A stretch of DNA of 64,000 nt from Patescibacteria group bacterium (GCA_041658665.1 JBAZZR010000001.1:192576-256575); one strand, 5' to 3'. Counted from the stretch's first letter, positions 1-9,932 are shown. Numbers and translations are program-made. Notes: generated from the sequence alone by a model not told the origin.

Positions 1-386
1 ATTTTCATACTTCAATATCCGTAAACGATTTACAAGAATCACGAGAATTCTACGAATCGGTTTTTAACCTAAAATTCCGTTCTGAAGGGGAAAGGAAAGA
101 AATGAAGTCAAAGTTTTTGAATCTAGAGGATGAAAATCATAATGTCGTGGAATTATTCAAGCACGACAATCCGATTCCTTTATCCGATGACCTAATGGAT
201 ATGCAGAAAGTCGGTATTAAACATTTAGCTTTTATAGTCGATAATATTGAAGAGGTAATAGAGCATTCAAGTAAATATAAATCTAAAGTAATTTGGCCTC
301 CTCAAGAGGGCATAACCCTTAAAAGGATAGCCTTTATTTCTGACCCTAACGGTATCCCCATAGAGCTGGTCGAGCTAAAAGATTAA
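1..386 (+). CDS. VOC (glyoxalase/bleomycin-resistance/dioxygenase) family protein, 5' end cut by window edge
   Basis: The frame is open from nt 3 (FHTSISVNDLQESREFYESVFNLKF...) into listed ORF 102..386. An N-terminal 'HxSxxVxDLxxSxxFY' half and a C-terminal 'GIKHLAFIVDNIEE...DPNGIPIELVE' half are typical paired VOC modules. Confidence 0.7.
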   Translation, partial: FHTSISVNDLQESREFYESVFNLKFRSEGERKEMKSKFLNLEDENHNVVELFKHDNPIPLSDDLMDMQKVGIKHLAFIVDNIEEVIEHSSKYKSKVIWPPQEGITLKRIAFISDPNGIPIELVELKD

Positions 387-412
387 GTTAAACTTATAAT
401 AGGGTAATACTA

Positions 413-442
413 CCGTTTCCAGTGCATCCCACCCTCTCCGCA
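413..442 (+). repeat. Intergenic repeat copy E1 (left half only)
   Basis: CCGTTTCCAGTGCATCCCACCCTCTCCGCA lies 27 nt after the VOC gene stop. Confidence 0.8.
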
Positions 443-465
443 ATTGTAACTTGTCAGATTATTTT

Positions 466-960
466 ATGAAAAATAATATAAAACAAAAAAATATTAAGAT
501 CATAACTATAGATAATGTTGAGCAGATACTCAAATTATATCCGGAAGCGAATAAGGAGCGATTAGCAAAAATTAAGTTTGACGTAAGCAATGATATAGAT
601 AATGCTAGGAAAAGAGATAGAATTATTTTTGGATTGAAGAAAGGCAATGAAGTAGTGGGAACCGCACAATTAGTTTTTAAGGATAAAAAAAAATTTTATG
701 CCGATGGAAAGATAAAAGCCCATATCCATCATGTCAGGGTAATGGAAAATCTTAGGGGAAAAGGTTTGGGCTCACAGTTAATGCGGCATATTGAAGTTGA
801 AGCAATAAAAAAGGGATTTGGTGAAATAACTTTAGGCGTTGAAGAAGATAACAAAAGAGCAGTTATTTTTTATAAGAAGATAGGATTTCAAGAGTTCATG
901 AAAGAAAAGGGGGATGAAGGTGAAATTATAATTGGAATGAAAAAAATTATAGCAAATTGA
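466..960 (+). CDS. GNAT family N-acetyltransferase
   Basis: Acetyl-CoA motif A 'VRVMENLRGKGLGSQLMRHIEVEA' is followed by 'AVIFYKKIGFQEF'. The ORF-track start at 451 is TTG; the first ATG is at 466. Confidence 0.85.
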   Translation: MKNNIKQKNIKIITIDNVEQILKLYPEANKERLAKIKFDVSNDIDNARKRDRIIFGLKKGNEVVGTAQLVFKDKKKFYADGKIKAHIHHVRVMENLRGKGLGSQLMRHIEVEAIKKGFGEITLGVEEDNKRAVIFYKKIGFQEFMKEKGDEGEIIIGMKKIIAN

Positions 961-995
961 AAATAATAGTTATTTATTAGAATTTTTAAATATTA

Positions 996-1037
996 CCATT
1001 CCAAGTGCGTCCCACCCTCTCCGCTAGTATTGGAAAC
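996..1037 (+). repeat. Intergenic repeat copy E2 (hairpin form)
   Basis: CCATTCCAAGTGCGTCCCACCCTCTCCGCTAGTATTGGAAA. TTCCAA/TTGGAA forms the stem around the conserved core. An AAACAAGGTA-AAT-TACCTTGTTT+T terminator hairpin follows at about 1034..1060. Confidence 0.8.
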
Positions 1038-1097
1038 AAGGTAAATTACCTTGTTTTTTGATACTTATGGGGTTAAAATATAGATAAGTTTGAATAT

Positions 1098-2180
1098 ATG
1101 AACAACCTAAGTAAATATTTAAAGCAAGCTGGCAAAGAAGGTCTTAATTTGGCGAGCTCTCGTAAGCTCTCTCTATTGACGGCCAGCTTTATATTTTTTG
1201 CTTATACTAGTTTATTAAATAAATTCTTCGGCTATTCTTATCAGTCAATTGGCGTATATGGTCTAAAAAAACAATCTAACTATCTCATGAACGAGGAACG
1301 TATTGGACGGGTAGTAGGGAAAGTCATAAAAAAAATTGATTTAAGACAATCAATTAGAGATTTGGTAACAATCCTAAATAAACACAAGGTAATAATCTCT
1401 AAACTTGATGGTGAGAATGACCCCTTTGTGGTTCTAAAAACATTATCCGAAATTTATCCAAAAGTTCTGATGCAAGTCGGATTTTATAATTCGATAATGC
1501 GCTACATCAGTAATAATAAAAAGATAGCCGCGAGTTTCGGAGCCTCTGTTAAATTAATTGGGGAAAATAAGGATATTACCGCCGATTTCATTTATAATAA
1601 GATTGAGCCTTTGCTGGACAGGACGGTTAAAAAGATCGGGAGGAAAAACGGTTTTAATGGTGACATATTAAAATTTTTAACTTTAGCCGAATTGAATAAA
1701 TATATTAAACAAAAAAAGTTAAGTCGCAAGCAGATAGATGACCTGGTAGCGCGCCGGAAGGGTTACTTTTATATTTCTTTGGGTAATAAGGACACCATTT
1801 TTGTAGGAAAAAATATTGTTGATAGAGTTGACGCTCATTTTTCCGCAAAAGATATCAGAAAGGGAAACGTAATTTCTGGAATATCGGCCTACCCCGGGCT
1901 TGTAAAGGGGAGGGTGTATAAGACATTCCACGGTTTAAAATTAAGCAAGCCTGGCTATGTATTAGTCACTAACATCACTAAACCTTCCGATGCTCCCTAT
2001 TTGAAAAAATTTTCAGCAATCGTTACGGATGAGGGTGGTATTTTGTCCCATGTAGCAGTAATAAGTCGTGAACTCAAAATACCATGTATTATGAGCACAA
2101 AGATTGCAACAAAAGTTTTAAAAAATAATACACTTGTAGAAGTAAATGCAAATAAAGGAATAGTTAAGATATTAAAATAA
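1098..2180 (+). CDS. PEP-utilising enzyme mobile (swivel phospho-histidine) domain protein
   Basis: The C-terminal ~80 aa 'AYPGLVKGRVY...AIVTDEGGILSHVAVISRELKIPCIM' match the GGxxSHxAIxxRExxIP swivel-domain signature. The N-terminal ~270 aa were not recognised. Confidence 0.6.
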   Translation: MNNLSKYLKQAGKEGLNLASSRKLSLLTASFIFFAYTSLLNKFFGYSYQSIGVYGLKKQSNYLMNEERIGRVVGKVIKKIDLRQSIRDLVTILNKHKVIISKLDGENDPFVVLKTLSEIYPKVLMQVGFYNSIMRYISNNKKIAASFGASVKLIGENKDITADFIYNKIEPLLDRTVKKIGRKNGFNGDILKFLTLAELNKYIKQKKLSRKQIDDLVARRKGYFYISLGNKDTIFVGKNIVDRVDAHFSAKDIRKGNVISGISAYPGLVKGRVYKTFHGLKLSKPGYVLVTNITKPSDAPYLKKFSAIVTDEGGILSHVAVISRELKIPCIMSTKIATKVLKNNTLVEVNANKGIVKILK

Positions 2181-2291
2181 GTTTAACATCGTTCCAACTA
2201 CGTCCCACCCTCTCCGCAGATTAAAACAGTTCTAATATTAGAGCTATTTTTTATAAGGAGTTTATCACTTTGGAACGGTTTATGTTATAAT
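2181..2291 (+). repeat. Intergenic repeat copy E3 (complete: left half + right half)
   Basis: GTTTAACATCGTTCCAACTACGTCCCACCCTCTCCGCAG ... GAGCTATTTTTTATAAGGAGTTTATCACTTTGGAACGGTTTATGTTATAAT. The ends are imperfect inverted repeats (GTTTAACAT-CGTTCCAA vs TTGGAACG-GTTT-ATGTTATAA). Confidence 0.8.
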
Positions 2292-2308
2292 TAAATAAAT
2301 TAATATTT

Positions 2309-2905
2309 ATGACAAAGTATATTCTTAATTCTGGTGGACTAAAAAATTTCCCCGAAAAAGAAAAAAAATTTAATAAAGAAATAGTTAAAAAATTGAGTAA
2401 AACACCCAGTATTTTATTTTGCTATTTTGCGGTTCCTCGCGAACACTGGGAAGAGAAATTTGCTCGGCACGCAGAGCATTTTTTGGAATCAATGGATAAA
2501 GATATTAGGCCAGAGTTTGAGTTAGCTCTCCCGGACAAATTCATTAATCAGTTAAAAAATAATGATGCCATTATAATACACGGCGGGGACGACAAACTGC
2601 TATTGTATTGGCTAAAACAATATAATTTGCCAGAAATTTGGGAAGGCAAAGTCGTTGCTGGTAGTTCGGCGGGTTCGGATGCCTTAGTCAAACATTTTTG
2701 GACTTGTGATTGGCGCCTGATTATGGATGGCCTAGGAATATTACCAATTAAGTTTATACCTCATTATAAGTCATTATATGGGCAAAACGACCCCCGAGGC
2801 TCCATAGACTGGGAAAGTGCTTACAAAAAATTAGAGGAATATGGAAATAAATCTTTGCCAATTCATGCTTTAGAGGAGGGTAATTTTATTGTTATTGAGC
2901 AATAA
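2309..2905 (+). CDS. Peptidase S51 (dipeptidase E/cyanophycinase-like) family protein
   Basis: 'IIIHGGDDKLLL...VVAGSSAGSDAL' carries the nucleophile-elbow Ser in G-S-S-A-G, and a downstream 'FIPHY' His is present. The size of about 200 aa is typical of the family. Confidence 0.6.
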   Translation: MTKYILNSGGLKNFPEKEKKFNKEIVKKLSKTPSILFCYFAVPREHWEEKFARHAEHFLESMDKDIRPEFELALPDKFINQLKNNDAIIIHGGDDKLLLYWLKQYNLPEIWEGKVVAGSSAGSDALVKHFWTCDWRLIMDGLGILPIKFIPHYKSLYGQNDPRGSIDWESAYKKLEEYGNKSLPIHALEEGNFIVIEQ

Positions 2906-3010
2906 GCGTTTCCCAGTGTGTCCTATCCTCTTCGCAGTTTGGGAATAGCTCTAAAGATGGGCTATGCTTGGCAAGGAGAATTGAGCTTTGGAACGACTGG
3001 TGCTAATATT
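2906..3010 (+). repeat. Intergenic repeat copy E4 (divergent, complete)
   Basis: GCGTTTCCCAGTGTGTCCTATCCTCTTCGCAGTTTGGGAA has a TTCCCA/TGGGAA stem that is compensatory relative to E2. The right half is GGGCTATGCTTGGCAAGGAGAATTGAGCTTTGGAACGACTGGTGCTAATATT. Confidence 0.7.
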
Positions 3011-3069
3011 AAGATAATTATAAAAATTATTTACTCAAGACATTATAAGTTGCCCCTGGCAAAATTAAT

Positions 3070-3765
3070 ATGAACTTATCAAATAAGGTGGTAGTGATTA
3101 TCGGTGGGAGTCGTGGTTTTGGGGAACAGTTAGCCAAAAGTTTTATTAAGGAAGGGGCAAAAGTTGTAATTGCTAGTAAATCAGAGGATATGATTGTTTC
3201 CACAGCTAAAGCAATAGGGGCGATACCTTTTGTAGTTGATGTAAGAAGTGAGCCTGAAATTAGAAATTTAGCTTTAAAAGTCACTGAACAACTGGGAGCC
3301 ATTGATATATGGATTAATTGTGCTGGTGTTTTTAAAATTTTTCCTAAAGACGAATTGATTGATATGAATCGTGCTCACGAAATGTTTGATATTAATTTTT
3401 TTGGAGTTGTATTTGGTTCTCGTGCGGCCCTTTTATATATGCAAGAAAAAGGGGGAGTTATTATTAGTATTATTTCCAGCGCTGCACTCGATGCTACACG
3501 ATCTAAAAATGCGAAATTGTATGCCGCTAGTAAATGGGCTGTTCGTGGATATGTTGAGGCTCTGCGTGGCGAAAATACAAATAGTAATATTCAGATATAC
3601 TCTGTGTATCCCGGCGGTATGAAAACCCATTTGCACGACGAAGCTTTACCGGCAGATTTTGATAATTTTATGGAACCTAGTATTGTGGCTGATAAAGTTT
3701 TAGACAATTTAAAGAAAGAAGTACCGGAACAAGATCTTATTATCAAAAGACCGATTGTGCACTAA
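3070..3765 (+). CDS. Short-chain dehydrogenase/reductase (SDR) family oxidoreductase
   Basis: Contains the Rossmann motif 'VVIIGGSRGFG', 'NCAG', and the catalytic 'YAASKWAVRGY' (YxxxK). Confidence 0.9.
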   Translation: MNLSNKVVVIIGGSRGFGEQLAKSFIKEGAKVVIASKSEDMIVSTAKAIGAIPFVVDVRSEPEIRNLALKVTEQLGAIDIWINCAGVFKIFPKDELIDMNRAHEMFDINFFGVVFGSRAALLYMQEKGGVIISIISSAALDATRSKNAKLYAASKWAVRGYVEALRGENTNSNIQIYSVYPGGMKTHLHDEALPADFDNFMEPSIVADKVLDNLKKEVPEQDLIIKRPIVH

Positions 3766-3780
3766 TACTAGCTACCCATA

Positions 3781-3808
3781 TTCCAACTACGTCCCACCCT
3801 CTCCGCAG
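3781..3808 (+). repeat. Intergenic repeat copy E5 (left half)
   Basis: TTCCAACTACGTCCCACCCTCTCCGCAG is identical to the E3 core over 28 nt. Confidence 0.85.
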
Positions 3809-3841
3809 TAAGACAAAAATAGGGCGAAAGCCTTATATGTC

Positions 3842-3870
3842 TTGACAAGGCTTTTAATATTGTATATACT
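3842..3870 (+). promoter_or_regulatory. Promoter of TA operon 1 (TTGACA-17-TATACT) with downstream direct repeats
   Basis: Consensus -35, a 17-nt spacer and TATACT. AGTATGTA is repeated at 3872..3879 and 3883..3890 and is a candidate operator. Confidence 0.55.
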
Positions 3871-3912
3871 AAGTATGTACAAAGTATGTATTAATTTATA
3901 AATAATAAAAAT

Positions 3913-4188
3913 ATGGACTCAACAGTTATCAACATAAAAACAGACATTAAAGTAAAAAAGGAGGCTCAAAAAATAGCCGCTGATTTGGGTTTGAGTTTAA
4001 GCGGGGCAATTAATGGGTTTCTAAAACAACTTATTCGCAATAAAGCGGTTTTGTTTACTTTAAATGAAGATACGCCGAGCGATTATTTATTATCTTCCAT
4101 TAAAGAATCAAGGGACGAGAGAAGGGCGGGAAAGTTTTATTCTTTTAAAAATAATCAGGCCGCTGTTAGTTTTTTGGATAATAAATAA
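3913..4188 (+). CDS. Type II antitoxin, RelB/DinJ family
   Basis: The ribbon-helix-helix-like N-terminus 'INIKTDIKVKKEAQKIAADLGLSLSGAINGFLKQLI' is present. The gene is 91 aa and ends 3 nt before the toxin gene. Confidence 0.75.
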   Translation: MDSTVINIKTDIKVKKEAQKIAADLGLSLSGAINGFLKQLIRNKAVLFTLNEDTPSDYLLSSIKESRDERRAGKFYSFKNNQAAVSFLDNK

Positions 4189-4191
4189 TCT

Positions 4192-4458
4192 ATGCAGATT
4201 GAATATTCCAAAAAATTTATTAAAGAATTCAAAAAATGTCCAGCCAATGTAAAAACTAATTTTAAGGCAAGATTAGAAATCTTTGTTAATGACCAATATC
4301 ATTCTATATTAAATAATCATCCATTGATTGGCGAATTAAGGAATTATCGAAGTCTTAATATTACTGGTGATTGGCGGGCTATTTTTGAAGAAGTGGGTGG
4401 CGGCCAAATGATTTATTTTGTGGCCATTGGTACACACAGCCATTTATATTCTTCTTAA
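4192..4458 (+). CDS. Type II toxin, RelE/ParE (mRNA interferase) family
   Basis: 88 aa with 'L.G.LR.YRSLNITGDWRAIF...IYFVAIGTHSHLY', typical of RelE/StbE toxins. It lies immediately downstream of the antitoxin. Confidence 0.75.
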   Translation: MQIEYSKKFIKEFKKCPANVKTNFKARLEIFVNDQYHSILNNHPLIGELRNYRSLNITGDWRAIFEEVGGGQMIYFVAIGTHSHLYSS

Positions 4459-4465
4459 ATATAGA

Positions 4466-4560
4466 TTTCTACTACATTCCGCCCTCTCCGCAGAACGGGA
4501 CGAAGCGAGTCTAAAAGCTCACTTCGTCCTTTTGTTTACGGGGGTTTTCGCCAGTTCTAG
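4466..4560 (+). repeat. Intergenic repeat copy E6 (long form with terminator hairpin)
   Basis: TTTCTACTACATTCCGCCCTCTCCGCAGAACGGGACGAAGCGAG...CTCACTTCGTCCTTTTGTTT...CAGTTCTAGCC. The terminator is at 4497..4537. Confidence 0.75.
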
Positions 4561-4716
4561 CCTAAAGCAACACTTCTTGATGATAATACAATTTTGGAGT
4601 AAACTTTAGACATAAACTCTATCAACTTAAAAAATGAAGGATAATAATATTACAATTGTGGCTAACACGGAAACTTTGTTTCGTTTAATCCAATCAATCT
4701 CTTCCAAAAAAGCAGT

Positions 4717-5337
4717 ATGCCGCTAATTATTGGAACAAAGAATAAGGCTAAAATTGAACAGATAAAAAGTGCTTTGAATTCTTTAAACTTTGATATTCAA
4801 GAATTACCAGATCAGGAATTTCCTGAAATTAGAGAAAATGGCCAGACCGCTTTGGATAATGCGCGCTTAAAGGCCCTCGCCTATACTCAACTTATTCGGC
4901 GACCAATTCTTTCTATGGATAATGCACTTTACCTTGAAGGTCTAGCCGATGACAGGCAACCAGGTACACACGTTCGGCACATCAGTAATAGAATAGATAG
5001 ACCGAGTGATGATGAAATTATCGATTATTATTCCAAATTAATCAGCGAATTAGGCAATAAAATAACAGGCTATTGGGAGTACGGCGTTTGCGTAGCTACT
5101 CCCGACGGGAAGACGCAAGAAATAGTTTTTAGATCTCCGCGTATTTTTGTTAGTTGTCCAAGTTCTCAAGTAATAGCTGGTTATCCTTTAGAATCTTTGC
5201 AAATTGATCCAGACACTGGTAAATATTGTTCGGAGATGACTCAATCTGAAAAGGATACATTCTATCTAGAGCGGAGTATAGTCGGCCAGAAATTACGTGA
5301 ATTTATTATTAATTTACCTAATCATTTTGTGAATTAA
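4717..5337 (+). CDS. Ham1/RdgB-like non-canonical purine NTP pyrophosphatase family protein (divergent)
   Basis: The N-terminus 'IIGTKNKAKIEQIK' resembles xTxNxxKxxE, 'ENGQTALDNARLKA' resembles E.G.T...NA..KA, and 'SMDNALYLEGL...PGTHVRH' follows. The resemblance is by motif only. Confidence 0.5.
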   Translation: MPLIIGTKNKAKIEQIKSALNSLNFDIQELPDQEFPEIRENGQTALDNARLKALAYTQLIRRPILSMDNALYLEGLADDRQPGTHVRHISNRIDRPSDDEIIDYYSKLISELGNKITGYWEYGVCVATPDGKTQEIVFRSPRIFVSCPSSQVIAGYPLESLQIDPDTGKYCSEMTQSEKDTFYLERSIVGQKLREFIINLPNHFVN

Positions 5338-5371
5338 TTGGCATTTTTATCTAAAGTATTAATAATTATTT

Positions 5372-6097
5372 ATGCAAAAAGACATTTCTATTAAATCTAA
5401 AGATAAAAAATTCAGAATATATGGCACATTTGATGAGTTGGTAAAATCAGAATCGCTTATTATATTTGTACATGGATTAACTGGCAATAAGAATCACCAC
5501 CAGTTCTATAATGCTGCTAAATATTTTACTAAACATAAATATTCAACATATAGATTTAATTTATACTCAGGTGAGAAGAACGGCAGAAGCCTAGAGGACT
5601 GTACAATTAGTACGCACACGGAAGATCTAAATGAAGTAGTTAAGTACTTTAAATCTAAATTTAAAAATATTTATTTAGTTGGGCATAGTCTTGGTGGTCC
5701 CGTTATTTTAAATGCTAATTTATCAGCTATTAGTAGAATTGTTTTATGGGATCCATCCGTCAAGACAAAAACTGAAGATGACGAATTTAATTGGTATAGT
5801 TTTAACAAAAGCCTTAATGCTTATGTCGCCAGTTGGGGTATTAGTTACGTCGTAAGTAAAGGCCTATTTAAGGAATGGAATAATTTAGATTATGATAAAT
5901 GGGTTGAAAATTGCACAATGCCGCTTAAAATAGTTTGTGCTGGCGACGGGATACTTAAGGGTGAATGGAAAAACCTTATTAAAAAGTTTAAGGTTGAAAA
6001 GGAATTAATAGTTATTAAAAATGCCGGGCATTGTTTCGATGAAGGTGATACTGAAAAAGAGCTATTTATTGAAAGTTTGTCTTGGTTTAAAAAATAA
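5372..6097 (+). CDS. Alpha/beta hydrolase
   Basis: Contains 'IIFVHGLTGNKNHH' (oxyanion region), the nucleophile elbow 'LVGHSLGG' (GxSxG) and a C-terminal 'NAGHCF' His. Confidence 0.8.
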   Translation: MQKDISIKSKDKKFRIYGTFDELVKSESLIIFVHGLTGNKNHHQFYNAAKYFTKHKYSTYRFNLYSGEKNGRSLEDCTISTHTEDLNEVVKYFKSKFKNIYLVGHSLGGPVILNANLSAISRIVLWDPSVKTKTEDDEFNWYSFNKSLNAYVASWGISYVVSKGLFKEWNNLDYDKWVENCTMPLKIVCAGDGILKGEWKNLIKKFKVEKELIVIKNAGHCFDEGDTEKELFIESLSWFKK

Positions 6098-6133
6098 GAT
6101 CATTCTAACTAAAAGAATTGATAAAATAAATTT

Positions 6134-6595
6134 ATGACTTCATACAAACACACCCAAATTGGCTATCTGATGCTGGTGGTTACGCTGGCCGTGTTGGCGC
6201 TCTTCGCGTGGGCTTATATTACGGCCAGGGCTGAGCCACCTTCGTACTACTCCGGTACCAATTTTCTCGTCACTACTATAATGATTTTAATCCTGTGTAC
6301 TCTGGCCTCGTTTGTCACGTTGACAACGTCGATTGATGAAAATTATCTTCGGATTAAATTTGGTTACGGAATTTTCGCTAAGAAGTTCGCGCTTAATCAG
6401 ATAGCTTCGGTTCAAGTAGTAAAGAATCACTGGTATTACGGTTGGGGAATGCGAGTCTGGTTCTGGCCGTATATGTGGATTTATAATGTTTCCGGTTTTG
6501 GGGCGGTTGAGATAATTATGAAAAATGGGAAAGTTTATCGCCTAGGAACGGATGTTCCCGAAGAATTGGAAACTGCAGTCAAAAAAGTTTTATAA
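6134..6595 (+). CDS. Hypothetical membrane protein (2 predicted TM helices)
   Basis: Two hydrophobic stretches (LMLVVTLAVLALFAWAYI and VTTIMILILCTLASFVTL). The gene is visibly GC-richer than its neighbours. No family was recognised. Confidence 0.5.
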   Translation: MTSYKHTQIGYLMLVVTLAVLALFAWAYITARAEPPSYYSGTNFLVTTIMILILCTLASFVTLTTSIDENYLRIKFGYGIFAKKFALNQIASVQVVKNHWYYGWGMRVWFWPYMWIYNVSGFGAVEIIMKNGKVYRLGTDVPEELETAVKKVL

Positions 6596-6636
6596 TAATC
6601 CTATTAAAATAGGATTATTTTTGTTATTCTTAAAAT

Positions 6637-7602
6637 ATGTTTTACCCTTTAGAACTATTGGCCGACTGGCTAACTCACTCAGTTTTAAATATCACTCCTA
6701 ATACACTACTAGCTAGTGCTTTAAACTTTTTTATCGCTGATGTCCTTAAAATATTTATTTTGCTTTTTGTTATTATTTTTGTCGTTTCCTTCATTCGTAC
6801 TTATTTACCGCCGGAAAAAGTTCGATTGTTTCTAGCCAAGAAAAATAGATTAACTGGCCATATTTTAGCCTCGCTTTTAGGGATTGTAACGCCTTTCTGT
6901 TCTTGCTCGGCCGTACCTTTATTCTTAGGGTTTATTGAGGCGGGCGTACCGCTCGGCGTTACCTTTTCTTTTCTGGTTGCTTCACCGATGATTAATGAAG
7001 TCGCTCTGGTCTTATTAATAGGTCTCTTCGGTTGGAAAATAGCTCTAACCTATATTATCAGCGGCTTACTTATCGCCATTGTCTCAGGATTGATCATCGG
7101 CCGCTTAAAGGTTGAACATTTAGTGGCTGACTTTGTTTGGCGAAATAAGCCAAAAAATAATACAATTTCTGAAACTAAAATGAGCCAGCCTGAAAGGATG
7201 ACTTACGCCTTAAATTATGCCGTTGATATTTTTAAAAATGTTTGGCTTTATATCATAACTGGTGTTGGCATTGGCGCTTGGATTCATGGCTATGTGCCAG
7301 CTGATTTTCTGGCTCAATATGCTGGAGCGGACAAATGGTATGCCGTTCCTTTGGCCACTATAATCGGTATTCCGCTCTATTCCAATGCCGCTGGGGTTAT
7401 TCCTTTAGTTAGCGCCTTAACAGAGAAGGGGGTCGCAATGGGCACAACATTGGCTTTTATGATGGCTGTTACCGCCTTGTCTATACCAGAATTTATGATT
7501 TTAAAGAAAGTAATGAAAACTAAATTGATTTTCATTTTTGCCACGATTGTCGGTTTAGGGATAATATTCACTGGTTATTTATTTAACATTATTCTAAAAT
7601 AG
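6637..7602 (+). CDS. Permease of the DUF318/ArsP-like family
   Basis: Polytopic membrane protein carrying the signature 'GIVTPFCSCSAVPLFLGFIEAGVPLG' (CxC-x-x-x-P motif of this permease family). Confidence 0.7.
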   Translation: MFYPLELLADWLTHSVLNITPNTLLASALNFFIADVLKIFILLFVIIFVVSFIRTYLPPEKVRLFLAKKNRLTGHILASLLGIVTPFCSCSAVPLFLGFIEAGVPLGVTFSFLVASPMINEVALVLLIGLFGWKIALTYIISGLLIAIVSGLIIGRLKVEHLVADFVWRNKPKNNTISETKMSQPERMTYALNYAVDIFKNVWLYIITGVGIGAWIHGYVPADFLAQYAGADKWYAVPLATIIGIPLYSNAAGVIPLVSALTEKGVAMGTTLAFMMAVTALSIPEFMILKKVMKTKLIFIFATIVGLGIIFTGYLFNIILK

Positions 7603-7632
7603 GATTATAATTTTGCTGAAGCTAGGTTTATA

Positions 7633-7736
7633 ACCGTTCTAACTATATCCCTCACTCTCCGCAGAACGGGACGAAATAGGCTAAACAAGCTTATTTCGTC
7701 CTTTTGTTATAGGAGCATTCGTCAGTTCGAACCTGG
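7633..7736 (+). repeat. Intergenic repeat copy E7 (long form with terminator hairpin)
   Basis: CCGTTCTAACTATATCCCTCACTCTCCGCAGAACGGGACGAAATAGG...CTTATTTCGTCCTTTTGTTATAGG...CAGTTCGAACC. A CCGTTCT/AGAACGG stem encloses the core. The terminator is at 7668..7708. Confidence 0.75.
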
Positions 7737-7749
7737 CTATTTCTATGTA

Positions 7750-7778
7750 TTGACAATTTATTGAAAATGCAATACAAT
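7750..7778 (+). promoter_or_regulatory. Promoter of dinJ-yafQ operon (TTGACA-17-TACAAT)
   Basis: Consensus -35, a 17-nt spacer and TACAAT, 28 nt upstream of ATG 7806. Confidence 0.55.
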
Positions 7779-7805
7779 AAAATTATAATTATTATCTATA
7801 AAAAT

Positions 7806-8090
7806 ATGATTACTACAAATAATGAACAAATTCAAATTCGCATTGATTCTAAAACTAAAAATGAAGCGAAGAAGATTTTGGATAGCTTAGGCATGGACAT
7901 GAGCTCGGCGATTAAAATTTTTTTTCGTCAAATAATCAATACTAAAAATTTTCCTTGTGAATTGAGGGACGAGAACGGATTTACTTTACGAAATGCCGAA
8001 ATTTTACGTAAATCAATTGCTAGTGCCAGAAATAGTAATAAATCTTTTAATAAGGGATTAGCGCTTATTAAGGATGCCTTACATGATTGA
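7806..8090 (+). CDS. dinJ: Type II antitoxin, DinJ/RelB family
   Basis: Contains 'IQIRIDSKTKNEAKKILDSLGMDMSSAIKIFFRQII'. ATG 7806 is preferred over the TTG at 7761, because the TTGACA-17-TACAAT promoter at 7750..7778 would put the TSS downstream of 7761. Confidence 0.8.
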   Translation: MITTNNEQIQIRIDSKTKNEAKKILDSLGMDMSSAIKIFFRQIINTKNFPCELRDENGFTLRNAEILRKSIASARNSNKSFNKGLALIKDALHD

Positions 8091-8093
8091 TTT

Positions 8094-8366
8094 ATGTTTA
8101 TATTAAAGTATTCTAGTCGTTTTAAGAAAGATTTAAAGCTTTATAAACATAATAGAGCCTTACTTGCTGAACTTCAGAAAGTCTTAGATATTCTAGCCAA
8201 AGCCGGTAATTTATCATCCAAAAGCACCAATCATCGTTTGGTCGGAGAATTTAAAAATTGTTTTGAATGCCATATCAAGCCGAACATTCTTCTTATTTAT
8301 AAAATAGAAGAATCAGAAATAACTATTTTATTATTAAGAATTGGTTCACATTCTGAGCTTTTTTAA
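8094..8366 (+). CDS. yafQ: Type II toxin, YafQ family mRNA interferase
   Basis: 'HRLVGEFKNCFECHIKPNILLIYKIEE..ITILLLRIGSHSELF' matches the YafQ signature H.L.G....ECHI.PD.LLIY...RTGSHSDLF. Confidence 0.85.
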   Translation: MFILKYSSRFKKDLKLYKHNRALLAELQKVLDILAKAGNLSSKSTNHRLVGEFKNCFECHIKPNILLIYKIEESEITILLLRIGSHSELF

Positions 8367-9341: not shown

Positions 9342-9932
9342 CTAATTTGGATATAGTTTCACCTTGCGTTCCTTTGCTAGTATTATTGAGTTAATAACGA
9401 TATTGGGGATAGTAAAAAAAGCGAGAGTAAGAATGAAATAATCTGGCTCGTATTTATATTTAAAAAATATAAAAATAGATAAAATTATCGAAATAAATAT
9501 GAATGTTAGGCTCTGGAAGTGTAATATTCTATTGAAGACGGAATCTTGATTTTTGGTTAATTTTATATATTGCAGTAGATGAGATAAAATTTGGATAGGA
9601 AGTGTGAAATATATTAGAGCTATAAGTATTCCGCCGTTTCCTCCGAACAGGAGCCCATTTAGAGCAAAACATAGTGTAGCGATAACCACCGTTACTACTC
9701 CTGAATATTTTTTTTGAGGTAGACCCTCGTTAATCGAACTAGGGCTAAGTTCTTTATAAAATAACCATAAGAGTAGGACTATCGGTATCATGAAAAATAA
9801 ACTAGCAAGTTGATCGGTGTTGTGAGTTATTATTGAGGATATAACTAAAATAACCCCAGACACTAAAAAATAGGCGGCGATAATGGTAATCAATATTTTA
9901 GTAGCCGATCTAAAAAATTCTTTAATTTGCAT
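9342..9932 (-). CDS. Hypothetical polytopic membrane protein
   Basis: 196-aa ORF, hydrophobic throughout (about 6 TM segments). No family was recognised. Confidence 0.5.
   Translation of the reverse strand: MQIKEFFRSATKILITIIAAYFLVSGVILVISSIITHNTDQLASLFFMIPIVLLLWLFYKELSPSSINEGLPQKKYSGVVTVVIATLCFALNGLLFGGNGGILIALIYFTLPIQILSHLLQYIKLTKNQDSVFNRILHFQSLTFIFISIILSIFIFFKYKYEPDYFILTLAFFTIPNIVINSIILAKERKVKLYPN

What the first reader, a model, noticed from the sequence alone, without database searches (positions are those of the whole stretch)
1..8366. Co-oriented cassette-like gene array punctuated by a conserved structured repeat: integron-like (attC-like) array or novel MITE family
Seen in sequence:
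- All 14 genes from the left edge to rbsK are on the + strand.
- At least seven intergenic sites carry the core (C)GT(T)CCAAnTRCGTCCCACCCTCTCCGCAG: 413-442, 996-1037, 2181-2291, 2906-3010, 3781-3808, 4466-4560 and 7633-7736. Each begins at or within about 40 nt after a stop codon.
- In several copies the core sits in the loop of a short stem whose sequence covaries: TTCCAA/TTGGAA in E2, TTCCCA/TGGGAA in E4, CCGTTCT/AGAACGG in E7.
- In the complete copy E3 the outer ends form a second inverted pair, GTTTAAC...GTTATAA. The first fits the attC R'' consensus RYYYAAC. The second has the conserved GTT of R', with unpaired extra bases between the inner and outer pairs.

Established knowledge: the gene content is what sedentary chromosomal integrons typically carry. 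It includes VOC/glyoxalase, GNAT, two RelE/YafQ-type TA pairs and small enzymes of mixed G+C (for example, 6134-6595 is visibly GC-richer).

Inference: this may be an integron-like cassette array whose recombinase lies left of the window. If so, it has unusual sites, with a conserved loop and a promoter in the right arm. Alternatively it is a terminator/promoter-carrying MITE family.
Basis: partly seen in the sequence, partly recalled or inferred. Interest (0 to 1): 0.75.

Follow-up and report, generated by a model that had tools for sequence, protein, structure and literature searches.

The report
Serine-recombinase gene-cassette array at tRNA-Ser
The repeat marks the joints between small gene cassettes inserted one after another at the end of a serine tRNA gene in a Falkowbacteria (CPR) genome, apparently by a large serine recombinase, so the array looks like an integron but is built by different machinery.

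Summary
The seven repeats are real: all on the + strand, all in the first 8 kb, none in the other 56 kb. They are neither attC sites nor MITEs.

- **Anchor.** A tRNA-Ser(UGA) gene ends 53 nt left of the window. Each repeat is a 33-nt arm that copies the tRNA's T-loop and 3' acceptor strand with 5 extra bases in between. That 5-bp offset is what distinguishes attP from attB half-sites of large serine recombinases (LSRs).
- **Family.** The same arm occurs in about 50 Falkowbacteria/Patescibacteria loci. Where a tRNA-Ser gene is in view (12 loci), the arm lies downstream of it on the same strand.
- **Recombinase.** In 30 of 148 related loci an LSR gene lies nearby; where mapped it abuts the tRNA or an arm, often with a rolling-circle Rep gene.
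- **Mobility.** Cassette homology begins and ends exactly at ..CTCTCCGC. Two contigs 99.7% identical differ by one 855-bp recombinase-less cassette inserted exactly at the tRNA end.
- **Gaps.** No cognate LSR was found in the 82 kb examined here, so mobilisation in trans is inferred. No tyrosine integrase and no RYYYAAC/GTTRRRY pairing (0 of 90 joints).

Verdict: a new LSR-based variant of tRNA-anchored island accretion, comparable to tycheposons and SCC composite islands.

The parts
1..441 (+). Cassette 1, truncated by the window edge. It starts at the tRNA-Ser(UGA) 3' end, 52 nt left of window position 1. Contains a VOC/glyoxalase gene (ATG 7 nt left of the window, stop at 386) and left arm E1 (409-441).
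   Evidence: tRNA at L001 9395-9482, where window position 1 = L001 9536. Pfam Glyoxalase. Arm.
442..1024 (+). Cassette 2: a short right arm, GNAT acetyltransferase (466-960), and left arm E2 (992-1024).
   Evidence: Pfam Acetyltransf_1, E = 1.7e-20. nhmmer E = 7.6e-11 for the arm.
1025..2217 (+). Cassette 3: right arm with a hairpin (1036-1054) plus T-run, a PEP-utilizers-domain protein (1098-2180), and left arm E3 (2185-2217, a perfect core).
2218..2935 (+). Cassette 4. Type-1 right arm: hairpin 2228-2245 plus T-run, an inverted GTTCCAA motif (TTTGGAACGG, 2268-2277), and promoter-like TTATCA-18-TG-TATAAT (2262-2291). Then peptidase S51 (2309-2905) and left arm E4 (2903-2935; the stop codon lies inside the arm).
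   Evidence: An 87%-identical homologue in L034 shares exactly this unit. Homology starts at AGA(T/C)TAAAA and ends after CTCTYCGCA. Promoter scan.
2936..3806 (+). Cassette 5: a type-1-like right arm, short-chain dehydrogenase (3070-3765), and left arm E5 (3774-3806, a perfect core).
3807..4491 (+). Cassette 6: right arm with promoter-like TTGACA-17-TATACT (3842-3870), RelB antitoxin (3913-4188), YafQ/ParE toxin (4192-4458), and left arm E6 (4459-4491, degenerate).
4492..7662 (+). Cassette 7, probably several fused cassettes. Type-3 right arm (hairpin 4497-4529), Ham1-like (4717-5337), alpha/beta hydrolase (5372-6097), unknown 153-aa protein (6134-6595, 42.9% GC), ArsP-family permease (6637-7602), and left arm E7 (7630-7662, degenerate).
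   Evidence: Homologues of the 153-aa gene and of ArsP sit next to other genes in other arrays.
7663..8366 (+). Terminal unit: type-3 right arm (terminator-like 7668-7702), promoter-like TTGACA-17-TACAAT (7750-7778), RelB (7806-8090) and YafQ (8094-8366). There is no distal arm; rbsK follows 25 nt later.
   Evidence: Homologous promoter-RelB-YafQ modules in L022 and L039 share only the stretch from the promoter to the stop codon.

Best explanation
The repeats are recombination joints of a cassette array grown at the 3' end of a tRNA-Ser(UGA) gene that ends 53 nt left of the window.

**Cassette layout**
- Right arm: a few A-rich bases, usually a terminator hairpin, often a promoter.
- One or a few genes.
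- A 33-nt left arm, (T)AAAACCGTTCCAAcTaCGTCCCACCCTCTCCGC.

**Site logic**
- The left arm imitates the tRNA-Ser T-loop and 3' acceptor strand (GGTTCGAA-TCCCnnCCTCTCCGC), with 5 extra bases between GTTCSAA and TCCC.
- That makes it the attP-type (P) half-site of a large serine recombinase (LSR). The tRNA end is the attB-type (B) half-site.
- Strand exchange occurs within CCGC(AA), at the very end of the tRNA. The tRNA stays intact and each insertion leaves one more arm downstream.

**Recombinase and mobilisation**
- Autonomous relatives (about 5.5-7 kb) carry the LSR, whose reading frame runs across the att site, plus a rolling-circle Rep.
- The small cassettes, including all eight units here, carry no recombinase and are presumably moved in trans.

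**Shown:** the anchor tRNA, the arm family, the cassette boundaries, the LSR linkage in relatives, and strain polymorphism including one clean single-cassette insertion.

**Inferred:**
- that the LSR acts on these sites;
- that recognition rests mainly on the left half-sites, so that tRNA x arm recombination can both insert and excise;
- that the cassettes in this window are or were mobilised in trans.
For: 1. **Anchor tRNA.** tRNA-Ser(UGA) lies at L001 9395-9482. Its last 15 nt, plus the AG that follows, are identical to the repeat core.
2. **Association with tRNA-Ser.** A genome scan found 49 loci, nearly all Falkowbacteria/Patescibacteria. In 12 of them a tRNA-Ser gene (anticodons tga, gct, cga or gga) lies upstream on the same strand as the arm, never the reverse.
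3. **Shared right arms.** The sequence after genuine tRNA-Ser genes is of the same types as the sequence after the repeats. The tRNAs keep their own T-stems, while the arms keep CCCAC.
4. **LSR linkage.**
   - An LSR (Resolvase + Recombinase + Zn_ribbon_recom) lies convergent on the tRNA, followed by an RCR Rep, with a canonical arm at the far end in L012, L011, L015 and L025.
   - LSRs occur in 30 of 148 loci. The one tyrosine recombinase used as query matches in only 2, neither at a joint.
5. **Cassette boundaries.** The S51 cassette here and its 87%-identical homologue in L034 align from just after ..CCGC to just after the next ..CGCA.
6. **Variation at the tRNA end (98 metagenome loci with the same tRNA).**
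   - There are 48 different downstream starts, all diverging exactly after CTCTCCGC.
   - 13 pairs have near-identical upstream sequence (at least 86% identity over 250 nt) but unrelated downstream sequence.
   - 18 contigs break just after the tRNA.
7. **A clean insertion.** L085 equals L099 plus an 855-bp one-gene cassette, with flanks 99.7-99.8% identical. The cassette ends in an arm variant, GTTCGAA-CAAAG-TCCCTCACTCCCCGC. A T/C difference 5 nt from the end places the crossover within CCGCAA.
8. **The 5-bp offset.**
   - The arm has (G/A)TTCCAA at nt 21-27 from the end in nearly all of 90 joints. The tRNA has GTTCGAA at nt 16-22.
9. **Family statistics.**
   - 41 bounded cassettes have a median length of 921 bp, and 29 contain one ORF.
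   - 49 of 54 ORFs are co-oriented with the joints.
   - No recombinase appeared among the most-matched Pfam families of the cargo.
Against: - **No cognate LSR here.**
  - None was found in the window or in 18.5 kb to its left.
  - The only LSR nearby (L053 440-1723) is 36% identical, lies in a prophage-like block and has no tRNA beside it.
  - None of the top 120 LSR homologue clusters has a longest contig of 821,845 bp, the length of this contig.
- **Right half-sites are poorly conserved and not symmetric with the left**. Canonical LSR attP sites are quasi-palindromic.
- **Canonical LSRs do not recombine attP with attL.** Growth of tandem arrays therefore needs a relaxed requirement for the right half-site, which is untested.
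- **Some arms are degenerate.** E4 and E6 have 10-11 mismatches over 33 nt and E7 has 6. Part of the array may be fossil.
- **The terminal unit has no distal arm.**
- **Only one clean single-cassette insertion pair was found.**
Confidence: 0.72

Rival explanations
1. Fossil scars. The array is the decayed remains of successive self-sufficient integrative elements, each of which once had its own recombinase. The small cassettes were never mobile units, and the repeats are inert leftovers.
For: - Decay is visible in relatives. The LSR is split into two ORFs in L004 and reduced to its last 41 codons in L036.
- Arms E4, E6 and E7 are degenerate.
- No cognate LSR lies near the array.
- Tycheposon islands show the same kind of remnants (10.1101/2020.12.28.424599).
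Against: - The L085/L099 pair differs by a single 855-bp recombinase-less cassette in a background 99.7% identical.
- The 33-nt arm is conserved at 90-100% per position across genomes, while the adjacent sequence is not.
- Cassettes are compact: median 921 bp, with the stop codon often inside the arm.
- Random decay of 5-7 kb elements would not leave this pattern.
Confidence: 0.15
2. Integron or CALIN. The repeats are unusual attC sites recombined as folded single strands by an IntI-type tyrosine recombinase encoded elsewhere in the genome.
For: - Cassettes are co-oriented, mostly single-gene, and carry typical cargo: toxin-antitoxin pairs, GNAT, VOC and small enzymes.
- Some units have an inverted pair, CCGTTCCAA...TTGGAACGG, about 85 nt apart (18 of 90 joints).
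Against: - No tyrosine recombinase within about 90 kb. The one tyrosine recombinase used as query matched in only 2 of 148 loci, neither at a joint.
- RYYYAAC/GTTRRRY pairing is found in 0 of 90 joints.
- Inner stems are at chance level.
- The cassette boundary lies at the end of the tRNA-like core, so the two 'arms of the hairpin' belong to different cassettes.
- The array is anchored on tRNA-Ser, and an LSR sits at the joint in relatives.
Confidence: 0.03
3. MITE-like or REP-like intergenic element carrying a terminator and promoter, which spreads by transposition into intergenic spacers.
For: - The family has many copies per genome and occurs on several contigs of one MAG.
- Terminator-like hairpins occur in 50 of 90 right arms, and promoter-like sites in several arms of the window.
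Against: - Orientation is strictly that of the upstream tRNA-Ser and of the cassette genes.
- The element is never seen inserted on its own. What is gained or lost is gene plus arms.
- Left and right parts segregate with different genes.
- No terminal inverted repeats bound the unit.
- None of the copies lies in the 56 kb of core genes in the window.
Confidence: 0.04
4. RNA-level signal. The tRNA-like 3' piece at the end of each mRNA acts as a processing or stability element, in the manner of tRNA punctuation or an RNase P/Z or CCA-adding target. It is conserved for that reason rather than as a DNA site.
For: The arm lies in the 3' UTR of each cassette gene, just before a terminator hairpin. 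It copies the tRNA's 3' strand.
Against: - There is no partner for the acceptor or T-stem strand, so no tRNA-like fold.
- Rfam and ARAGORN find nothing.
- Stems are at chance level.
- The 5-nt insertion disrupts any T-arm.
- This reading does not explain the tRNA anchoring, the LSR linkage or the insertion polymorphism. A secondary RNA role is not excluded.
Confidence: 0.04

Closest known systems
Large serine recombinase (serine integrase) attP x attB integration, as in phages A118/LI, phiC31 and Bxb1
   Same: - Relatives carry a recombinase with Resolvase + Recombinase + Zn-ribbon domains next to the att site.
- The junction is precise, with only a few shared bases at the crossover.
- The element-side half-site carries the same outer motif as the host-side half-site, but 5 bp further from the crossover (PMC3783163).
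   Different: - Only the left half-sites are conserved; the right halves vary freely.
- Insertions pile up in tandem at the same tRNA end, which strict attP x attB selectivity would forbid.
- Most units are single genes without a recombinase.
- The target is the shared 3' end of four tRNA-Ser isoacceptor genes.
SCC / SCCmec composite islands of staphylococci (CcrAB/CcrC large serine recombinases at the 3' end of rlmH)
   Same: - Serine-recombinase cassettes inserted in tandem at the 3' end of a housekeeping gene.
- The att sequence is repeated at every joint.
- Recombinase-less cassettes (ACME, COMER) are mobilised by the Ccr enzymes of a neighbour (PMC11470126).
   Different: - The target is a tRNA gene, not rlmH.
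- Cassettes are about 0.2-3.4 kb, usually one gene, against 24-68 kb.
- The host is a CPR bacterium.
- Relatedness of this LSR to Ccr was not tested.
Tycheposons and tRNA-flanked genomic islands of Prochlorococcus
   Same: - tRNA-targeted elements, including tRNA-Ser(TGA).
[quoted passage not shown] - Partial tRNAs scattered through the islands (10.1101/2020.12.28.424599).
   Different: - Tycheposons are defined mainly by a lineage-specific tyrosine recombinase (910 of 937 elements).
- Here the recombinase is an LSR.
- The repeat is not a plain partial tRNA but a conserved arm with a 5-nt insertion.
- The units are mostly single-gene cassettes.
Sedentary chromosomal integrons / CALINs
   Same: - An array of co-oriented, mostly single-ORF cassettes with accessory cargo, including toxin-antitoxin pairs.
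- A family-specific conserved repeat at each joint.
- Insertion next to a fixed acceptor site.
- Content varies between strains.
   Different: - No IntI and no attC signature or fold.
- Cassettes appear to carry their own promoter and terminator.
- The acceptor is a tRNA gene end.

Membership tests
Integron (including CALIN) | IntI-type tyrosine recombinase next to the array (absent by definition in a CALIN) | tested here: not met
   Pfam-annotated gene calls from 18.5 kb left of the window to 8 kb beyond its right end show no PF00589 protein. In 148 related loci, the one tyrosine recombinase used as query matched in only 2, neither at a joint.
Integron (including CALIN) | attC sites: R'' (RYYYAAC) and R' (GTTRRRY) inverted cores bounding an imperfect palindrome | tested here: not met
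   0 of 90 distinct joints have RYYYAAC on the left and GTTRRRY within 140 nt on the right. The E3 'R'' overlaps the -10 hexamer. Inner stems are at chance level.
Integron (including CALIN) | Match to the IntegronFinder attC covariance model | not testable with these tools
   The model is not in Rfam. An Rfam search at gathering thresholds gave no hit in the window.
Integron (including CALIN) | Compact, co-oriented, mostly single-ORF cassettes | tested here: met
   All window genes are on the + strand. In the family, the median cassette is 921 bp, 29 of 41 have one ORF, and 49 of 54 ORFs are co-oriented.
Large-serine-recombinase integrative element | Gene for a recombinase with Resolvase, Recombinase and zinc-ribbon domains at the att site | tested here: inconclusive
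   Met in relatives: L012, L011, L015, L025, L004 and others, 30 of 148 loci in all. Not met in this window or within 18.5 kb to its left. The only LSR nearby is 36% identical and not beside a tRNA.
Large-serine-recombinase integrative element | Element-side half-site with the outer (zinc-ribbon-domain) motif 5 bp further from the crossover than in the host-side half-site | tested here: met
   For the left half-sites: the arm has (G/A)TTCCAA at nt 21-27 and the tRNA has GTTCGAA at nt 16-22 from ..CCGC. The L085 arm has GTTCGAA at the same offset. The rule is from PMC3783163. Right half-sites show no such motif at the expected place.
Large-serine-recombinase integrative element | Precise junctions with a short crossover shared by the two sites | tested here: met
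   The L085/L099 junctions share only CCGCAA. The tRNA and the arm keep their own base 5 nt from the end. Divergence occurs exactly after CTCTCCGC in 98 loci.
Large-serine-recombinase integrative element | Recombination activity of the enzyme on these sites | not testable with these tools
   Needs an in vivo or in vitro assay.
Tycheposon | tRNA gene at one end and partial tRNA copies at the joints, with tandem insertion | tested here: met
Tycheposon | Lineage-specific tyrosine recombinase and shared hallmark genes | tested here: not met
   The recombinase in relatives is an LSR and the replication gene is an RCR Rep. The tycheposon definition is from 10.1101/2020.12.28.424599.
SCC-type cassette chromosome | Ccr-family recombinase and integration at the 3' end of rlmH | tested here: not met
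   The target is tRNA-Ser. Ccr orthology was not examined.
MITE | A short non-coding unit with terminal inverted repeats and target-site duplication, inserted as a unit | tested here: not met
   The left and right parts belong to different cassettes. The polymorphic insertion is gene plus arms. Orientation is fixed relative to the tRNA and the genes.

The most novel reading that the evidence does not exclude
A working analogue of the integron built on a serine recombinase.
- The 3' end of tRNA-Ser plays the part of attI, and the 33-nt arm plays the part of attC.
- The enzyme reads mainly the left half-sites. Every tRNA x arm exchange therefore regenerates one tRNA-type and one arm-type site.
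- Insertion at the tRNA and excision of tRNA-proximal cassettes would then be the same reaction, with no directionality factor needed.
- Each cassette brings its own terminator and promoter.
- This would give streamlined CPR genomes a dedicated gene-capture platform.
Probability: 0.3. Interest if true: 0.8.

Novelty: new variant of a known kind. Interest (0 to 1): 0.62.

Why it matters
- **A possible dedicated route for gene flux in CPR.** CPR/Patescibacteria have tiny genomes, and the routes by which they gain and lose genes are poorly described. This finding points to a hotspot used across many Falkowbacteria and other Patescibacteria: the shared 3' end of the tRNA-Ser genes. Single accessory genes, each with its own expression signals, are stacked there.
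- **Convergence with integrons.** If the serine recombinase really handles recombinase-less cassettes through one-sided site recognition, this is a second, independent solution to the integron problem.
- **A natural test case for recombinase engineering.** The arm and the tRNA end differ by a 5-bp offset, which is how attP and attB identity is encoded. That is of practical interest for engineering serine integrases.
- **Annotation and assembly.**
  - Contigs break at this tRNA in 18 of 98 cases.
  - Gene callers extend the recombinase ORF into the antisense of the tRNA.

Tried and rejected
- **Known RNA families and tRNAs.** An Rfam search of the window at gathering thresholds and ARAGORN found nothing. 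An Rfam E-value search of the GC-rich element left of the array returned only spurious hairpin matches.
- **Viral contigs.** A scan for the arm motif gave 0 hits, so no free phage or plasmid form was found there.
- **Walking left.** This was solved through a homologue search.
- **Upstream copies.**
  - A second tRNA-Ser upstream would have explained the two copies left of the tRNA, but none was found within 18.5 kb.
  - Instead a tRNA-like 3' end without the 5-nt insert, at L053 9893-9914, precedes them.
- **Folding the GC-rich element.** Neither strand folds better than shuffles (z about -1.1 to -1.4).
- **RelB/YafQ module.** It was not informative about boundaries. Homology runs only from the promoter to the stop codon, and the arm types differ.
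- **Identical-protein look-ups.** Searches with the GNAT and RbsK sequences returned only this genome and one near-identical Logan contig, so strain variation of this exact array could not be seen.
- **Symmetry of the site.** The expected inverted outer motif is not at +21..27 in the right arm. It occurs, direct or inverted, mostly at +40..70 in 25 of 90 joints, against 2 expected. This is unexplained.

Full report
**1. What is in the window**

The core ..TCCCACCCTCTCCGC(AG) occurs seven times, always on the + strand. The copies end at window positions 441, 1024, 2217, 2935, 3806, 4491 and 7662.
- Five copies match within 3 mismatches, against 0.01 expected in shuffles. Two are more diverged.
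- A profile built from the family finds no further copy in window 8.4-64 kb.
- Gene calls put every gene from the left edge to rbsK on the + strand.
- In order, the genes are: VOC/glyoxalase, GNAT, a PEP-utilizers-domain protein, peptidase S51, a short-chain dehydrogenase, RelB/YafQ, Ham1-like, an alpha/beta hydrolase, an unknown 153-aa protein, an ArsP permease, and a second RelB/YafQ pair.
- Each repeat begins 0-31 nt after a stop codon, or contains it.
- The array is AT-richer than the rest of the window (34.6% against 41.1% GC). The 153-aa gene stands out at 42.9%.

**2. The anchor lies just outside the window**

Fetching the parent contig (822 kb, ENA ERZ27247322) showed that window position 1 is L001 position 9536. 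A tRNA-Ser(UGA) gene occupies L001 9395-9482, ending 53 nt to the left. Its 3' end, GGTTCGAATCCCACCCTCTCCGC followed by AG, carries the repeat core. The repeats are therefore copies of the tRNA's 3' end, preceded by a conserved non-tRNA stretch, CCGTTCCAAcTaCG.

**3. The family**

A scan of one genome per species with a degenerate 24-mer returned 49 loci.
- Nearly all are Candidatus Falkowbacteria or unclassified Patescibacteria. Some bins carry titles from other phyla (Gammaproteobacteria, Bacillota).
- Several genomes have copies on many contigs, and some loci hold arrays of up to five copies in 8 kb.
- In 12 loci a tRNA-Ser gene lies upstream of the repeat on the same strand, 0.6-6 kb away. 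The anticodons are UGA, GCU, CGA or GGA. No locus shows the opposite arrangement.
- All these tRNAs share GGTTCGAATCCCnn(C/T)(C/T)TCTCCGC.
- The sequence that follows genuine tRNA-Ser genes is of the same types as the sequence that follows the repeats. The tRNAs keep their own T-stem sequences, while the repeats keep CCCAC.
- The exchange point must therefore lie at the very end of the tRNA.

**4. The recombinase in relatives**

In L012 the DNA between tRNA-Ser(UGA) and the first repeat holds the following:
- a 519-aa large serine recombinase (Resolvase, Recombinase and Zn_ribbon_recom domains), convergent on the tRNA;
- a rolling-circle replication initiator;
- a 313-aa protein of unknown function and a glycosyltransferase;
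- a canonical repeat at the far end.

The same layout recurs in L011, L015, L004 (where the recombinase is split) and L025. L025 is a 6.9-kb contig bounded by a partial tRNA-Ser and a repeat.
- PHROGs calls the two key proteins an integrase and an RCR initiator, and finds no virion genes.
- The recombinase frame runs through the att site, so in the integrated state its last ~26 codons are antisense tRNA.
- Across 148 related loci (977 kb), LSR homologues occur in 30. The one tyrosine recombinase used as a query matches in 2, neither next to a joint.
- The LSR family is large: 1,935 database clusters at E <= 1e-20. The named members among the top 120 are mostly from Patescibacteria.

**5. Cassette boundaries**

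The S51 peptidase gene of the window has an 87%-identical homologue in L034.
- The DNA alignment starts at AGA(T/C)TAAAA, the first bases after ..CTCCGC. It runs through the terminator tail, the promoter region, the gene and the next left arm, and stops right after CTCTYCGCA.
- A cassette is therefore: right arm, gene(s), then the 33-nt left arm.
- The terminator-promoter belongs to the downstream gene and the conserved arm to the upstream gene.
- This rules out reading the roughly 100-nt intergenic unit as one mobile element or one folded site.

Over 90 distinct joints the pattern is as follows.
- The left arm is conserved at about 90-100% at most positions from nt 30 to nt 1. The right side is conserved only as an A-rich start.
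- A hairpin plus T-run follows in 50 of the 90 joints.
- Promoter-like sites with 10-11 of 12 consensus matches sit in the right arms at 2262-2291, 3842-3870 and 7750-7778. A terminator-like site lies at 7668-7702.

**6. Evidence of movement**

A metagenome scan with the first 46 nt of this tRNA-Ser(UGA) gave 98 loci.
- The flanks diverge exactly after CTCTCCGC, into 48 different classes among the 90 loci that extend at least 40 nt downstream.
- In about 15 loci an LSR gene abuts the tRNA end or lies within about 170 nt of it.
- 18 contigs stop within 150 nt after the tRNA.
- 13 pairs have 86-100% identical upstream sequence (250 nt) but unrelated downstream sequence.

One pair is a clean single-cassette insertion.
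- L085 equals L099 plus 855 bp (L085 6125-6979) inserted exactly at the tRNA end. The flanks are 99.7-99.8% identical.
- The insert has a hairpin right arm, one 201-aa membrane-protein gene and no recombinase.
- It ends with CAGTTCGAACAAAGTCCCTCACTCCCCGC, followed by the old flank.
- The tRNA keeps T and the arm keeps C at the fifth base from the end. The exchange therefore took place within the shared CCGCAA.

**7. Why a serine recombinase fits the site**

Counting from the last C of ..CCGC, the tRNA has GTTCGAA at nt 16-22. The arm has (G/A)TTCCAA at nt 21-27 in nearly all 90 joints, and GTTCGAA at that position in L085. Five extra bases (CTACG or CAAAG) precede TCCC.

Rutherford et al. showed for a Listeria phage integrase that the attP half-site spans 25 bp. 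[quoted passage not shown] The left arm and the tRNA end therefore look like matched P and B half-sites.

This is an argument from pattern, not a demonstration.

**8. How the array would grow (inference)**

- Right half-sites vary freely, both after tRNAs and after arms.
- The same element family uses four isoacceptor genes with unrelated downstream DNA.
- Recognition therefore probably rests on the left half-sites.
- If so, a tRNA end followed by an older cassette's right arm is still a usable target, and new cassettes enter next to the tRNA, as in L085 against L099.
- A tRNA x arm exchange within one molecule would excise the tRNA-proximal cassettes as a circle.
- Canonical serine integrases do not do this, so this step needs an experiment.

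**9. State of the array in this genome**

- No L012-type LSR is found in the window or in the 18.5 kb to its left.
- The only LSR nearby (L053 440-1723) is 36% identical to the L012 enzyme. It sits at the end of a prophage-like block with no tRNA beside it.
- E3 and E5 have perfect cores. E4 and E6 have 10-11 mismatches over the 33-nt arm, and E7 has 6.
- The 3.2-kb unit between E6 and E7 holds four genes whose homologues have other neighbours elsewhere, so internal joints have probably been lost.
- The last unit has no distal arm.
- The array is thus partly old. Whether any cassette still moves is unknown.

**10. The two copies left of the tRNA**

Arms also occur at L001 1600-1637 and L001 6037-6073, upstream of the tRNA.
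- They follow a tRNA-like 3' end without the 5-nt insert, GACCGAATCCCTTCCTCTCCGC, at L053 9893-9914.
- That end closes a GC-rich element of about 135 nt, made of an inverted and a direct partial copy of a tRNA-Ser 3' half. Upstream of the element lies a strong terminator hairpin.
- In L005, L060, L062 and L151 the same kind of element sits just after a tRNA-Ser gene. In L005 and L012 it is followed by cassette right arms.
- It looks like a second acceptor site, though its origin and role are open.

**11. Comparison with known systems**

*Integron.* The architecture and the cargo resemble one. The defining features fail: no IntI, no R''/R' pairing in 0 of 90 joints, inner stems at chance, and the two sides of each joint belonging to different cassettes.

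*MITE.* Orientation, anchoring and the nature of the polymorphic insert all argue against it.

*Closest known relatives in kind:*
- serine-integrase elements, which share the site logic;
- SCC composite islands, where Ccr serine recombinases mobilise recombinase-less cassettes stacked at the end of rlmH (PMC11470126);
- tycheposons, which insert repeatedly at tRNA genes and leave partial tRNAs but mostly use a tyrosine recombinase (10.1101/2020.12.28.424599).

Full-text searches found no description of such cassette arrays in CPR bacteria.

**12. Verdict**

- The integron and MITE labels are wrong.
- The idea of a recombination-built cassette array with its anchor left of the window is right.
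- I rate it a new variant of a known kind: tRNA-anchored, serine-recombinase-type cassette accretion in Patescibacteria.
- Open questions are trans-mobilisation and one-sided site recognition.

Noticed in passing
L053 9780-9914 (about 8.7 kb left of the window); also L005 3826-3692 (- strand), L012 6047-6124, L060, L062, L008, L150 and L151: A GC-rich non-coding element of about 80-135 nt. In most loci where its upstream flank is in view, it sits after a tRNA-Ser gene and a strong hairpin terminator. It begins with an inverted partial copy of the tRNA-Ser 3' half (GGCAGGGATTCGAA..) and ends with a direct copy (..CGAATCCCTGCCTCTCCGC) that lacks the 5-nt insert. In L005, L012 and L053, cassette right arms follow it. 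There is no Rfam match and its fold is not better than shuffles. It may be a second acceptor site or a scar of inversion.
   Followed up: partly
L012 370-1929 (- strand), with the tRNA at 361-448; the same in L011, L015, L025 and about 12 metagenome loci: The serine recombinase reading frame runs across the att site. Its last ~26 codons in the integrated state are antisense tRNA-Ser, and they would be replaced by about 12 other codons in the arm-joined form. One database entry (P0011, 568 aa) is annotated as a GNAT acetyltransferase yet carries both GNAT and LSR domains. This may be read-through into a neighbouring gene.
   Followed up: partly
L053 440-9560 (9-18 kb left of the window): A prophage-like block: a 427-aa large serine recombinase, a terminase-like protein, an N6/N4 methyltransferase, an S24 repressor and RusA. 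It ends near a degenerate arm-like sequence, AACGGTTCCAGCCCGAGGTAGCCCGC (L053 about 9708-9733). No tRNA lies beside the recombinase.
   Followed up: partly
Right arms of 25 of 90 family joints, mostly +40..+70 from the joint; in the window 2268-2277, 4551-4557 and 7724-7731: A second copy of the GTTC(C/G)AA motif, inverted in 18 joints and direct in 11, recurs in the right arms. About 2 such joints are expected by chance. It lies too far from the crossover for a normal half-site, inside or next to the promoter spacer. Its function is unknown.
   Followed up: partly
L001 1638-6073 (left of the window): One arm-bounded unit carries a five-gene set: 2-oxoacid:ferredoxin oxidoreductase alpha and beta subunits, a flavodoxin, an unknown protein and a NUDIX protein. 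Whole small operons can therefore sit between joints.
   Followed up: no
Metagenome loci L055-L152: 18 of 98 contigs end within 150 nt after this tRNA-Ser gene, against 10 that start within 150 nt before it. The hypervariable flank appears to break assemblies.
   Followed up: partly
Window 31777-60559: Three giant ORFs on the + strand (2172, 4061 and 2569 aa), with faint Ig-like and Peptidase_S74 hits. They follow a type IV pilus gene cluster (PilM, T2SSE, T2SSF and prepilin genes) at about 19.9-31.7 kb.
   Followed up: no
L044 1235-6490: Two LSR-Rep elements in tandem inside a chromosomal array. The tRNA-proximal one retains only the first 59 codons of its recombinase. The distal one is intact and abuts a canonical arm, in an attP-like configuration.
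   Followed up: no
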